From contig JAHFMZ010000001.1 in assembly GCA_023267555.1 (NCBI GenBank), positions 1 through 62,436 of the forward strand: 62,436 nt of DNA. Reading direction: 5' to 3'. The DNA is from a bacterium. Its GTDB lineage: Bacteria; Patescibacteriota; Minisyncoccia; Phycocordibacterales; UBA5272. The position numbers were made by a program, and so were the translations under genes. Shown in pieces: positions 56,976-57,127 of this stretch (within the stretch, counting starts at the first letter, position 1; each line of letters opens with the position of its first letter). The notes beneath the pieces are model-generated. The model ran no database searches, was not told the DNA's origin, and was given only the letters and a program-made list of their open reading frames with translations.

Positions 56976-57086
56976 TGGCGGAGGGAGCGAGATTCGGTCA
57001 CAAAATCAGCTCCTTCGTCGCAGATGATTTTCCGACCCGTATTCGAATCTCGCCAGAAAGTGAAGCAGTTCACTTTCTTTCCCTAC
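56976..57086 (-). ncRNA. tRNA-trailing tRNA-mimic module (third Ser-type copy), ends in an encoded CCA
   Basis: Minus strand GTAGGGA, H1 AAAGTGAA-CTGC-TTCACTTT, GGCGAG-ATTCGAATACGGGTCG, the same H2 as the other Ser copies, then TGACC-GAAT-CTCGC-TCCCTCC-G-CCA. Confidence 0.6.
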
Positions 57087-57127
57087 GCTAAAAAATCGGC
57101 ATTGGAAATGCCTGATTTTTATATCAG

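What the first reader, a model, noticed from the sequence alone, without database searches (positions are those of the whole stretch)
56976..57126. Third Ser-type copy on the minus strand: the mimic carries an encoded CCA while its tRNA gene does not
On the minus strand the module ends ..GAAT-CTCGC-TCCCTCC-G-CCA. The tRNA gene just upstream (57128-57214) ends ..TCCCTCC-G-CTG, so it has no encoded CCA.
At the Thr locus the situation is the reverse: the tRNA has CCA and the module does not.
In this copy a local GCGAG lies immediately 5' of ATTCGAAT. It can pair perfectly with the 3' CTCGC, giving a 10-bp extended T-like helix (GCGAGATTCG / CGAATCTCGC).
The acceptor-strand copy is GTAGGGA where the tRNA has GGAGGGA.
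H1 here is AAAGTGAA-CUGC-TTCACTTT, whereas the other Ser copies have AAAGCCAA-CUGC-TTGGCTTT. That is two compensatory base-pair changes under an invariant loop.
Basis: seen in the sequence. Interest (0 to 1): 0.75.

Follow-up and report, generated by a model that had tools for sequence, protein, structure and literature searches.

The report
Structured repeat behind tRNA genes
The supposed "tRNA mimic with its own CCA" is one copy of an apparently undescribed, hairpin-rich repeat of about 130 nt that sits behind most tRNA genes of these tiny CPR bacteria and ends in a duplicated piece of the tRNA's own 3' end; the CCA is a leftover or chance, not a designed feature.

Summary
The element is real and far from chance: a covariance model found 158 copies in 100 loci, all from Paceibacteria/Nomurabacteria-type CPR genomes and metagenomes, and none in phage, plasmid or viral collections.

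Its layout is: tRNA, terminator-like palindrome, antisense copy of the acceptor 3' strand, conserved hairpin H1 (loop CUGC), antisense copy of T-loop/T-stem 3' strand, bulge GAAUAGG, hairpin H2, then a direct repeat of tRNA nt 57-74.

- H1, H2 and the helix closing H2 covary strongly and contain near-invariant G.U pairs, so one strand folds.
- The acceptor-like helix is paired in only about 57% of cells.
- The 3' repeat is complete in only 29/80 copies, and CCA follows it in 5/29.
- Copies decay, form arrays, are swapped between related genomes, and alternate with gene cassettes.

Best reading: a non-coding insertion family at tRNA/tmRNA 3' ends. Its last 18 nt are the displaced tRNA fragment, and the CCA is a relic of the pre-insertion gene. 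Whether the module is transcribed, and which enzyme moves it, remain unknown.

The parts
57127..57214 (-). tRNA-Ser gene (anticodon ACU). Its nt 57-74, GAATCTCGCTCCCTCCGC (57144-57127), are the proximal direct repeat DR1. The gene is followed by CTG, so no CCA is encoded.
   Evidence: ARAGORN; Rfam tRNA model 56.8 bits; sequence
57087..57126 (-). Spacer palindrome 'hp'. It has A-rich and T-rich outer arms around the hairpin GGCATT-TCCA-ATGCC, followed by GATTTTTT, and looks like a bidirectional terminator. Together with DR1 and the next part it forms one long fold-back.
   Evidence: Terminator-like site 57098-57112 on both strands. DNA and RNA folds. The same architecture is seen in 75 loci.
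57080..57086 (-). Antisense copy of the acceptor 3' strand (GTAGGGA; one mismatch to TCCCTCC).
   Evidence: Sequence. Family-wide, this segment is at least 7/8 complementary to the upstream tRNA nt 66-73 in 45/75 copies.
57057..57076 (-). Hairpin H1, AAAGTGAA-CUGC-UUCACUUU. The stem covaries and the loop is conserved. It sits exactly where the acceptor and T helices meet.
   Evidence: 96% paired; 8/9 pairs with changes on both sides. Spacing to the next part is fixed in 50/75 copies.
57045..57053 (-). 'g9': GCGAG + ATTC, antisense to the tRNA T-stem 3' strand plus the T-loop 3' half. It is the 5' strand of helix P.
   Evidence: The 4-mer covaries with GAxT in 88/117 copies, 9 pair types. It pairs at least 8/9 with tRNA nt 57-65 in 56/75 copies and with the distal repeat in 43/75.
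56996..57044 (-). Constant core: the bulge GAAUACG (57044-57038) and hairpin H2 (GGUCGG...GUGACC, 57037-56996). A G.U pair near its base is present in 30 of 31 aligned copies.
   Evidence: RNAalifold and pair counts: 94.6% paired, and G.U at columns 79:120 in 30/31. H2 is identical in the three Ser modules of the window.
56978..56995 (-). Distal direct repeat DR2 = tRNA nt 57-74 (GAATCTCGCTCCCTCCGC). It is the displaced duplicate of the tRNA 3' end, the 3' strand of helix P and of the acceptor-like stem.
   Evidence: 18-nt identity with 57144-57127.
56976..56977 (-). CA, which completes 'CCA' after the discriminator of DR2. It is read here as native flank (a relic of the pre-insertion gene end) or as chance.
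57456..57562 (+). Sister module behind tRNA-Ser(GCU) (57338-57426); DR2 at 57545-57562.
   Evidence: 111.5 bits.
33192..33298 (+). Sister module behind tRNA-Ser(GGA) (33075-33162). Its interior is about 99% identical to the Ser(GCU) copy, but both repeats carry the locus-specific CTCTC.
   Evidence: 111.8 bits.
18475..18588 (+). Sister module behind tRNA-Thr(UGU) (18372-18447), with a different H1 and H2 subtype. Here the tRNA has CCA and the module does not.
   Evidence: 93.1 bits.
44948..45148 (-). Degenerate, larger variant with the same architecture behind tRNA-Arg(CCU). It ends GTGACC-GATTCTTGC.
   Evidence: read by eye; below the covariance-model threshold.

Best explanation
The 151-nt 'module' is one copy of a dispersed, non-coding, strongly structured insertion family that occupies the 3' flank of tRNA and tmRNA genes in Paceibacteria/Nomurabacteria-type CPR bacteria.

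Shown:
- Its 3' end (GAAT-CTCGC-TCCCTCC-G-C) is a direct duplicate of tRNA nt 57-74. This corresponds to the 'displaced fragment' that marks the far end of DNA integrated into a tRNA gene.
- The two tRNA-like 5' pieces are antisense copies of the same tRNA 3' end, split by the conserved hairpin H1.
- With the terminator-like palindrome, these antisense pieces make one long fold-back onto the tRNA's own 3' end.
- Folding is strand-specific, because conserved G.U pairs occur on the tRNA-sense strand only.

Inferred:
- The unit (tRNA-end copy + hp + antisense segments + H1 + H2) enters by recombination between its own copy of the tRNA end and the tRNA gene.
- It probably does so as a folded single strand, whose S:S' duplex re-creates the target sequence. 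A recombinase encoded elsewhere would do the work.
- Later recombination between copies shuffles and homogenises H1, H2 and hp.
- Arm-to-arm correction or selection keeps the antisense segments matched to the local tRNA.

On this reading the CCA after the distal repeat is simply the native end or flank of the pre-insertion tRNA-Ser gene, or chance. The working gene lacks CCA because the inserted DNA begins right after C74.
For: Family and specificity:
- There are 20 GTDB loci, all from CPR MAGs, and 91 metagenome stretches. The covariance model gives 158 hits.
- Phages and plasmids give no match. Neither viral-contig scan yields a model hit.
- Of 117 unique copies, 80 have a sense tRNA within 300 nt upstream, covering 26 anticodons. 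One locus has copies behind a tmRNA gene.

Insertion signature:
- The direct repeats are locus-specific although the interiors are shared. Ser(GCU) has CTCGC twice and Ser(GGA) has CTCTC twice, with about 99% identical interiors.
- L103 shows a clean 18-nt repeat pair bounding about 150 nt.
- Presence differs at orthologous tRNAs. The window's tRNA-Glu(CUC) has CCA and no module, whereas L041 has CAT + hp + module + 1.2 kb. tRNA-Ser(ACU) is module-free in L005, L022 and L024.
- L103 and L106 are 85% identical, yet their hp, H1 and H2 at the same tRNA-Leu are unrelated, and L106 has an array of four repeat copies.

Decay and arrays:
- Covariance-model scores run from 117 down to 20 bits. The distal repeat is complete in only 29/80 copies. 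Tandem units are common.

Hot-spot behaviour:
- Accessory cassettes sit between the tRNA or repeat copies and the modules. Examples are a HaeIII R-M pair in L024 and HAD, Vut_1 and DUF1428 genes alternating with modules in L117.
- This matches what is described for tDNA islands and tycheposons (PMC4383910; doi 10.1101/2020.12.28.424599).

Fast change confined to modules:
- All 3 SNPs in 6786 nt between two near-identical strains lie in the two Ser modules. Two of them are the same change in both copies.

CCA:
- It follows 5/29 intact distal repeats, 8/93 module-bearing tRNA genes and 12/47 module-less genes.

Structure:
-.
Against: - No recombinase or transposase was found. Single-sequence phmmer with IS200 and IS608 TnpA and with XerD against 2272 ORF segments from all the loci held found nothing.
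- The window's genes from 0 to 43 kb are housekeeping.
- A fixed-attP integrative element cannot explain how one core serves 26 anticodon types and a tmRNA gene. The step that matches the antisense segments to each tRNA is unexplained.
- No excised or circular form, and no strictly isogenic empty/filled pair, was seen. The closest comparisons are at 76-85% identity.
- Very high conservation of single-stranded motifs (CUGC, GAAUAGG, UUGUGACC) across genera, and occupancy of most tRNA genes (93/140 in the sampled loci, a biased sample), would also fit a host function.
- CPR genomes are small and deletion-prone, so long persistence of junk is unexpected.
Confidence: 0.5

Rival explanations
1. One reading: a tRNA-like RNA. 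The module would be transcribed (by read-through or from its own start) and fold into an acceptor stem + H1 + extended T-arm. RNase P and RNase Z-type enzymes would trim it, and it would carry or receive CCA. It would then act as a stable tRNA-shaped small RNA: a decoy, a processing signal or a chargeable mimic.
For: - The predicted fold is good: -52.8 kcal/mol, z = -6.3.
- H1, P and H2 covary, and G.U pairs occur on the sense strand only.
- H1 sits exactly where the D and anticodon arms leave a real tRNA.
- Orientation is always that of the tRNA.
- At the Thr locus the next ORF starts 15 nt after the module, so transcription must cross it.
- CCA after intact distal repeats is somewhat above the compositional expectation: 5/26 against 5.7%, p = 0.015.
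Against: - The acceptor-like helix is only 57-61% paired.
- The acceptor 3' strand is absent or degenerate in 51/80 copies.
- CCA is absent in 24/29 intact copies, and the orthologue in L015 has CCC.
- The T-loop is not mimicked.
- The Rfam tRNA and tmRNA models do not match the module.
- A terminator-like hairpin precedes the module.
- In a read-through transcript the favoured fold pairs the antisense segments with the real tRNA's 3' half.
- Many copies are decayed or stand in arrays.
Confidence: 0.15
2. A host cis-element of the tRNA transcription unit. The palindrome plus antisense segments and hairpins would serve the tRNA gene itself, for example as a bidirectional terminator or insulator, as a trap for read-through transcripts (a long duplex for RNase III), or as a 3'-end maturation aid. 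On this view it is a standard part of tRNA genes in this clade that co-evolves with each tRNA.
For: - A module core follows 93 of 140 tRNA genes in the sampled loci, and many others carry remnants.
- The hp has the hallmarks of an intrinsic terminator.
- The antisense segments track the functional tRNA copy rather than the distal repeat (the L020 example).
- Motifs are conserved across genera.
- No mobility gene is nearby.
Against: - Several tRNA genes work without it: the window's Glu and Gly, and Ser(ACU) in L005, L022 and L024.
- Copies are replaced wholesale between genomes that are 85% identical.
- Copies decay and multiply in tandem.
- Copies also stand between protein-gene cassettes far from any tRNA (L117).
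- Everything 3' of the terminator would not be in the terminated transcript.
- The sample is biased, because loci were fetched by the presence of a module.
Confidence: 0.15
3. A structured recombination site that punctuates gene cassettes, working like an integron attC or the folded attP of CTX phage. The single strand DR-hp-antisense(+H1) would fold into a duplex copy of the tRNA 3' end, with H1 as an extrahelical marker. A trans-acting recombinase would join it to any copy of that tRNA end, building arrays of modules and single-gene cassettes behind tRNA genes. The window's copies would be cargo-less units.
For: - Folding is strand-specific and tolerates G.T.
- The antisense copy re-creates the target duplex.
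- Cargo between g9 and the repeat is variable: H2 types and larger 'X-type' bodies.
- Arrays occur as module-gene-module-gene (L117), and cassettes sit at the repeat|hp boundary (L024, L022).
- No recombinase is linked, as for integron cassettes.
- Tandem full units look like repeated integration (L023).
Against: - No integrase candidate was identified anywhere.
- There is no similarity to attC consensus boxes.
- Gene cassettes in L022 and L024 have their own different ends and can abut without a module.
- No circular junction was observed.
- The evidence is purely comparative.
Confidence: 0.2

Closest known systems
Genomic islands integrated in tRNA/tmRNA genes (Islander definition; T-stem-region attP class)
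   Same: The regenerated tRNA gene plus a displaced 3' tDNA fragment in direct repeat mark the two ends. The fragment starts in the T-arm region, which is the commonest class (1836 of 3919 islands; PMC4383910). tmRNA genes are targeted too. Tandem arrays form at one tDNA.
   Different: The 'island' here is only about 130-150 nt and carries no integrase or any other gene. The same core occurs with 26 anticodon types. It carries an antisense copy of the target, interrupted by a conserved hairpin, which no described attP has.
Tycheposons and their remnants in Prochlorococcus islands (doi 10.1101/2020.12.28.424599)
   Same: Small streamlined genomes. Successive integrations next to tRNA genes push older elements outward. 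Partial tRNAs are scattered through the array. Cargo consists of single adaptive genes or defence genes.
   Different: Tycheposons encode their own tyrosine recombinase and replication genes. No structured non-coding module of this kind is described for them.
Integron attC sites / folded single-strand attP of CTX phage (from general knowledge)
   Same: Imperfect palindromes that act as folded single strands. Structure is conserved more than sequence. Extrahelical features set polarity. They punctuate arrays of promoter-less single-gene cassettes, and the recombinase acts in trans.
   Different: There are no R/L box consensus sequences and no IntI or Xer candidate was found. The stem here copies a tRNA gene end and differs at every locus. 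Function is inferred only from anatomy.
REP/BIME elements and IS200/IS605-derived PATEs (from general knowledge)
   Same: Short extragenic hairpin repeats with strand-specific folding. They lie just after terminators and form arrays and mosaics. In IS200/IS605, internal 'guide' bases pair with the cleavage or target site.
   Different: No RAYT/TnpA was detected. The pairing segment here is 17 nt and tRNA-specific, not a fixed tetranucleotide. There is a long target duplication.
tRNA-like RNAs (viral TLS, mascRNA, the tmRNA tRNA-like domain, bacterial Y-RNA tRNA-like module)
   Same: In complete copies, an acceptor-like stem stacks on a T-like helix, with one side arm replacing the D and anticodon arms.
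   Different: There is no T-loop. The acceptor helix and the CCA are not conserved. The acceptor sequence copies whichever tRNA lies upstream. There is no Rfam match.

Membership tests
tRNA (Rfam RF00005) / genuine tRNA gene | Cloverleaf with D-arm, 7-nt anticodon loop and T-loop, scoring above the model threshold | tested here: not met
   cmscan over 56900-57620 at E up to 10 hits only the two real tRNA genes. ARAGORN calls no gene in the module.
tRNA-like structure with a functional 3' end (TLS/mascRNA type) | Conserved acceptor helix ending in a discriminator + CCA (encoded or added) | tested here: not met
   The acceptor-like helix is 57-61% paired across 31 copies. The 3' repeat is intact in 29/80 copies and CCA follows it in 5/29.
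tRNA-like structure with a functional 3' end (TLS/mascRNA type) | T-loop (elbow) mimicry | tested here: not met
   The 4 nt before GAAUA are the complement of the tRNA's nt 57-60 (9 covarying types, 88/117 copies), so a helix forms instead of a T-loop.
tRNA-like structure with a functional 3' end (TLS/mascRNA type) | Transcript with defined ends made by RNase P and RNase Z | not testable with these tools
   No expression data are available. A terminator-like hairpin lies upstream.
tDNA-integrated island (Islander criteria) | Intact tDNA plus a cognate 3' tDNA fragment in direct orientation | tested here: met
   18-nt repeat at 57144-57127 and 56995-56978. The repeat is 17-25 nt in 22 of the 29 copies whose distal repeat is intact.
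tDNA-integrated island (Islander criteria) | Integrase gene inside the island | tested here: not met
   There are about 130 nt between the repeats and no ORF. No XerD-like protein is found in any flank.
Integron gene cassette / attC | Folded single-strand imperfect palindrome with conserved R''/R' core boxes (RYYYAAC/GTTRRRY) | tested here: not met
   A palindrome and strand-specific fold are present, but the boxes are absent. The stems are copies of tRNA ends.
Integron gene cassette / attC | Adjacent intI integrase and attI platform | tested here: inconclusive
   None lies within the fetched flanks (Pfam lists). Whole genomes were not available.
IS200/IS605-derived PATE or REP/BIME | Y1 HUH transposase (TnpA/RAYT) in the genome, and fixed tetra- or pentanucleotide target and guide | tested here: inconclusive
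The pairing segments are 8-9 nt and locus-specific.
MITE | Constant terminal inverted repeats and a short fixed-length target-site duplication | tested here: not met
   The inverted segments differ at every tRNA. The duplication is 17-25 nt, or truncated to 7-12 nt.
Intrinsic terminator of the tRNA gene (the hp part only) | G+C-containing hairpin followed by a T-run directly after the gene | tested here: met
   57098-57112 is scored as terminator-like on both strands. The same design is seen in most of the 75 loci.

The most novel reading that the evidence does not exclude
A tRNA-anchored counterpart of the integron. A trans-acting recombinase would use folded single-strand modules, whose 17-nt antisense segments (split by H1) re-create or base-pair with the 3' end of whichever tRNA or tmRNA gene they serve. 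Target choice would then be set by nucleic-acid complementarity rather than by a fixed att site. The modules would multiply landing pads behind tRNA genes, on which single-gene cassettes (R-M systems, transporters, hydrolases) are collected in the otherwise element-poor genomes of CPR bacteria.
Probability: 0.2. Interest if true: 0.9.

Novelty: new variant of a known kind. Interest (0 to 1): 0.6.

Why it matters
CPR/Patescibacteria have tiny genomes in which few mobile elements and few non-coding RNAs are known. The searches run here indicate that this family has not been described. It has no Rfam match, the five successful full-text searches for related descriptions turned up none, and there is no phage or plasmid match.

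The family occupies the flank of most tRNA genes in a whole clade. It combines a duplicated tRNA end with an antisense copy of that end, and it changes faster than anything around it.

- If it is a mobile or recombination module, it shows how gene cassettes are gathered at tRNA genes without a linked integrase. It would also hint at target recognition by complementarity, which is of interest for programmable DNA insertion.
- If it is instead a processed RNA, it would be a new class of tRNA-shaped RNA tied one-to-one to its tRNA.

There is also a practical consequence. These modules break metagenome assemblies: related contigs start or end inside modules that share repeated sequence. They can also be mistaken for tRNA pseudogenes or att sites.

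Tried and rejected
- **Known RNA family.** Rfam at gathering threshold and at E up to 10 gives no hit on the module.
- **Primer-binding-site idea** (antisense to the mature tRNA 3' end, as in retroelements). Rejected: the complementarity continues into the genomic trailer (C74 and the A-rich arm) and not into CCA.
- **Copy of the T-loop, or a conventional attR** (T5'-T-loop-T3'). Rejected by the Gly and Leu types, AATC...GATT and ACTC...GAGT.
- **Sense copy of the tRNA 5' strand.** Rejected: the segment carries the complements of N73/C74 and of nt 65, not U8.
- **Distal remainder of truncated repeats** (a large cargo inserted into the repeat). Only 3 of 51 cases have a downstream match within 6 kb, at 18, 86 and 5058 nt.
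- **Linked enzyme.** Nothing was found by phmmer with IS200 TnpA, IS608 TnpA and XerD, by Pfam on flanking ORFs or in the Pfam lists of window genes.
- **Phage or plasmid origin.** No blastn hit. Six loose pattern matches in viral contigs are not covariance-model hits.
- **Own sigma-70 promoter for the module.** None was predicted on the sense strand.
- **Small ORF or SD-GTG inside H2.** It is not conserved between H2 subtypes (read).
- **Literature.** Five full-text searches found no description of such an element. One search failed on syntax.
- **One protein look-up** (window 46752-48896) was not on record.
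Full report
**1. What is at the coordinates**

Reading the minus strand gives, in order:
- tRNA-Ser, anticodon ACU (57214-57128), followed by C74 (57127) and then TG.
- A 40-nt A/T-armed palindrome (57126-57087) whose centre is scored as a terminator-like hairpin on both strands (57098-57112).
- GTAGGGA (57086-57080).
- H1, AAAGTGAA-CTGC-TTCACTTT (57076-57057).
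- CTG.
- GCGAG-ATTC (57053-57045).
- GAATACG.
- A long hairpin H2 (57037-56996) ending in GTGACC.
- GAAT-CTCGC-TCCCTCC-G-C (56995-56978), then CA.

That includes the reverse situation at the Thr locus and the two compensatory pairs in H1 relative to the other Ser copies.

**2. It is a family, not a curiosity**

The window holds four clear copies, behind Thr(UGU), Ser(GGA), Ser(GCU) and Ser(ACU). It also holds a degenerate larger variant behind Arg(CCU), and a palindrome plus inverted acceptor copy behind Phe.

An exact pattern drawn from the constant core found 20 places in the GTDB species genomes. All are CPR MAGs labelled Nomurabacteria, Paceibacterota or 'Saccharibacteria'. It found 91 stretches in metagenomes and nothing real in viral contigs, phages or plasmids.

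A covariance model built from 31 copies then found 158 matches in 100 loci, and 24 more in 18 further loci. Rfam has no matching family. Five successful full-text searches for related descriptions found none.

Of 117 non-identical copies, 80 have a tRNA gene on the same strand within 300 nt upstream, covering 26 different anticodons. One locus has copies behind a tmRNA gene. Most of the rest are second units of arrays, lie at contig ends, or follow a tRNA-end fragment.

**3. Anatomy from comparison**

Three helices are supported by covariation on an alignment that was not fitted to any structure.

| Helix | Cells paired | Pairs with changes on both sides |
|---|---|---|
| H1 | 96% | 8 of 9 |
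| H2 | 94.6% | 8 of 15 |
| P (closes H2) | 89% | 4 of 9 |
| Acceptor-like | 57-61% | 7 of 7 |

- Sliding the partners by one to three columns drops overall pairing from 87% to 36-47%.
- H2 keeps a G.U pair near its base in 30 of 31 copies, and a second one in 20 of 31. These would be A.C mismatches on the other strand, so it is the tRNA-sense strand that folds, as RNA or as single-stranded DNA.
- The four bases in front of the constant GAAUA are not a T-loop copy. They are the complement of the cognate tRNA's nt 57-60: ATTC/GAAT 34, AATC/GATT 21, ACTC/GAGT 11, GATC/GATC 8, AGTC/GACT 7 and four rarer types. They are perfectly complementary in 88 of 117 copies.

The two 'tRNA-like' 5' pieces are therefore antisense to tRNA nt 57-65 and 66-74. 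H1 is inserted exactly at the acceptor/T-stem junction, at a fixed spacing (25 nt in 50 of 75 copies).

The complementarity of the acceptor copy runs on through the discriminator, C74 and the A-rich arm of the palindrome. In 26 of 72 loci the whole stretch, from tRNA nt 66 to the end of the acceptor copy, is at least 90% Watson-Crick paired as an ungapped fold-back. It does not extend into a CCA, which excludes pairing with the mature tRNA.

**4. Two alternative folds**

With the tRNA attached, the minimum-energy fold changes. As RNA and as DNA (z = -8.7), it pairs the antisense segments with the real tRNA's 3' half through the palindrome. The distal repeat is left free or pairs with the tRNA's 5' strand.

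Family-wide, the acceptor copy is at least 7/8 complementary to the upstream tRNA in 45 of 75 copies, but to the module's own 3' repeat in only 16 of 75. The g9 segment pairs well with both (56 and 43 of 75).

The distal repeat equals tRNA nt 57-73 (at least 15 of 17) in only 29 of 80 copies. In most others only GAxT plus the T-stem strand remains, and the missing part is not found further downstream.

The conserved unit is therefore hp + antisense segments + H1 + P/H2. The acceptor stem of the 'mimic' is optional.

**5. The CCA**

All 140 tRNA genes in the sampled loci have C at position 74. A full CCA is encoded in 8 of 93 module-bearing genes and in 12 of 47 module-less genes (Fisher p = 0.010).

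After intact distal repeats the triplet is CAA 9, CCA 5, CAT 3, CAC 3 and others. This does not differ from the tRNA genes (p = 0.30). It is modestly above base composition: 5 of 26 against 5.7%, p = 0.015.

For tRNA-Ser(ACU) specifically:
- The module-free genes of L022 and L024 encode CCA.
- The module-bearing genes of the window, L015, L021 and L107 have CTG, CTT, CTG and CTC directly followed by the palindrome.
- The intact distal repeat of L015 is followed by CCC.

The simplest account is that the inserted DNA begins right after C74. The distal repeat plus flank is what used to be the end of the gene, and it sometimes still shows its CCA. CCA is not a property of the family.

**6. Evidence that the units come and go**

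- (a) Direct repeats are locus-specific while interiors are shared. The Ser(GCU) and Ser(GGA) modules differ in one hp base, but each has its own T-stem base in both repeats.
- (b) Orthologous tRNAs differ in occupancy. The window's tRNA-Glu(CUC) has CCA and no module, whereas L041, which is 77% identical and syntenic, has CAT + palindrome + module + 1.2 kb.
- (c) L103 and L106 are 85% identical in flanking genes, but their hp, H1 and H2 behind the same tRNA-Leu are unrelated. L103 has a clean 18-nt repeat pair. L106 has four repeat copies with small inserts and a 1.3-kb gene.
- (d) H2 subtypes and hp arms are shared among different tRNAs within a genome and differ between genomes at the same tRNA. 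The same inner hp stems recur at different tRNAs and genomes.
- (e) Scores range continuously from 117 to about 20 bits, and tandem units without hp are common.
- (f) Between the window and a 99.96% identical strain, all three differences in 6786 nt lie in the two Ser modules. Two are the same A/C change in the H2 loop of both copies (P about 4e-5 for the clustering). This points to conversion between copies, or to assembly mixing of repeats.
- (g) The same sites collect accessory genes. A HaeIII restriction-modification pair lies between tRNA-Ser(ACU) and its module in L024, and an NTF2-like gene in L022. In L117 the order is module - HAD hydrolase - module - Vut_1 transporter - module remnant - DUF1428, with no tRNA in the locus.

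[quoted passage not shown] It also matches tycheposon arrays, where newcomers push older elements outward and partial tRNAs accumulate (doi 10.1101/2020.12.28.424599).

**7. What is missing**

- No recombinase, transposase or reverse transcriptase was found near any copy. The checks were Pfam lists for window genes, Pfam on flanking ORFs, and phmmer with IS200/IS608 TnpA and XerD against 2272 ORF segments.
- No excised form was seen.
- The step that fits the antisense segments to 26 tRNA anticodon types and a tmRNA gene is unexplained. It could be copying of the target at insertion, arm-to-arm correction within the palindrome, or selection.
- Whether the module is transcribed cannot be told. 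A terminator-like hairpin precedes it in most loci, yet at the Thr locus the next ORF starts 15 nt after it.

**8. Verdict**

The interpretation, a tRNA mimic equipped with CCA, is not borne out by the family.

I put the most weight (0.5) on a non-coding insertion or repeat family at tRNA/tmRNA 3' ends whose last 18 nt are the displaced tRNA fragment, and which probably works as a folded single strand.

The alternatives are:
- a cassette-punctuating recombination site (0.2), which is a sharper form of the same idea;
- a processed tRNA-shaped RNA (0.15);
- a host element of the tRNA transcription unit (0.15).

The family itself appears to be undescribed and is unusual enough to deserve follow-up. 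The specific CCA point is ordinary.

Noticed in passing
window 57127-57214 (-), and L005, L015, L021, L022, L024, L085, L107: A tRNA-Ser with anticodon ACU (loop UUACUAA) is conserved in at least 8 related genomes, usually next to a normal tRNA-Ser(GCU). An A34 tRNA for AGY codons is unusual in bacteria.
   Followed up: partly
all loci (140 tRNA genes): Every tRNA gene has C at position 74, but only 20 encode a full CCA. CCA is more frequent in genes without a module (12/47 against 8/93).
   Followed up: partly
window 44948-45148 (-): A larger, degenerate relative of the module lies behind tRNA-Arg(CCU). It has a palindrome, a partial acceptor copy, a long hairpin, GGGGTCG...CGTGACC, then GTGACC-GATTCTTGC.
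   Followed up: partly
window 45601-45654 (-): tRNA-Phe is followed by a perfect 46-nt palindrome and an inverted copy of its acceptor 3' strand (GTGCTGGG), but there is no H1/H2 core.
   Followed up: no
window 1340-1412 (+): A tRNA-like gene lies between the 23S and 5S rRNA genes. ARAGORN cannot name its anticodon, and the Rfam tRNA score is only 38.8 bits.
   Followed up: no
L117 3600-5550: An array with an 872-nt period: module - HAD hydrolase gene - module - Vut_1 transporter gene - module remnant - DUF1428 gene. There is no tRNA in the locus. The two full units are near-identical except for an H2 apical stem changed on both arms.
   Followed up: partly
L024 4755-6777 (-): A HaeIII-type restriction endonuclease and a C5 methyltransferase are inserted between tRNA-Ser(ACU) and its module. 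The cassette ends in a diverged T-arm-like sequence (GTGGGTACTTAACCCACAACCTCCGC).
   Followed up: partly
L088 269-880 (-): A tmRNA gene is followed by the same architecture: a palindrome, an inverted copy of its acceptor strand, a hairpin, and then two module cores.
   Followed up: partly
L005 2150-2400 (+); also L022, L101, L019 7100-7240: 'X-type' relatives of about 230 nt share the plan (hp, acceptor copy, hairpin with a different loop, g9, GAAGCG/GAACG..., ...AATGACC, tRNA-end repeat) but have a different body.
   Followed up: no
window 54626-61411 versus L001: The only three differences between two 99.96% identical strains fall inside the two Ser modules. Two are the same A/C change in the H2 loop of both copies.
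   Followed up: yes
L031 around 700-860: Two modules lie head-to-head around one palindrome without a tRNA. The reverse complement of one supplies the 'tRNA-end' arm for the other.
   Followed up: no
window 33180-33208 and 57444-57472 (-): A sigma-70-like promoter match (TTGGCT-17-TATATT) lies on the antisense strand inside H1/hp of the two near-identical Ser modules, pointing into the tRNA gene. It is probably chance.
   Followed up: no
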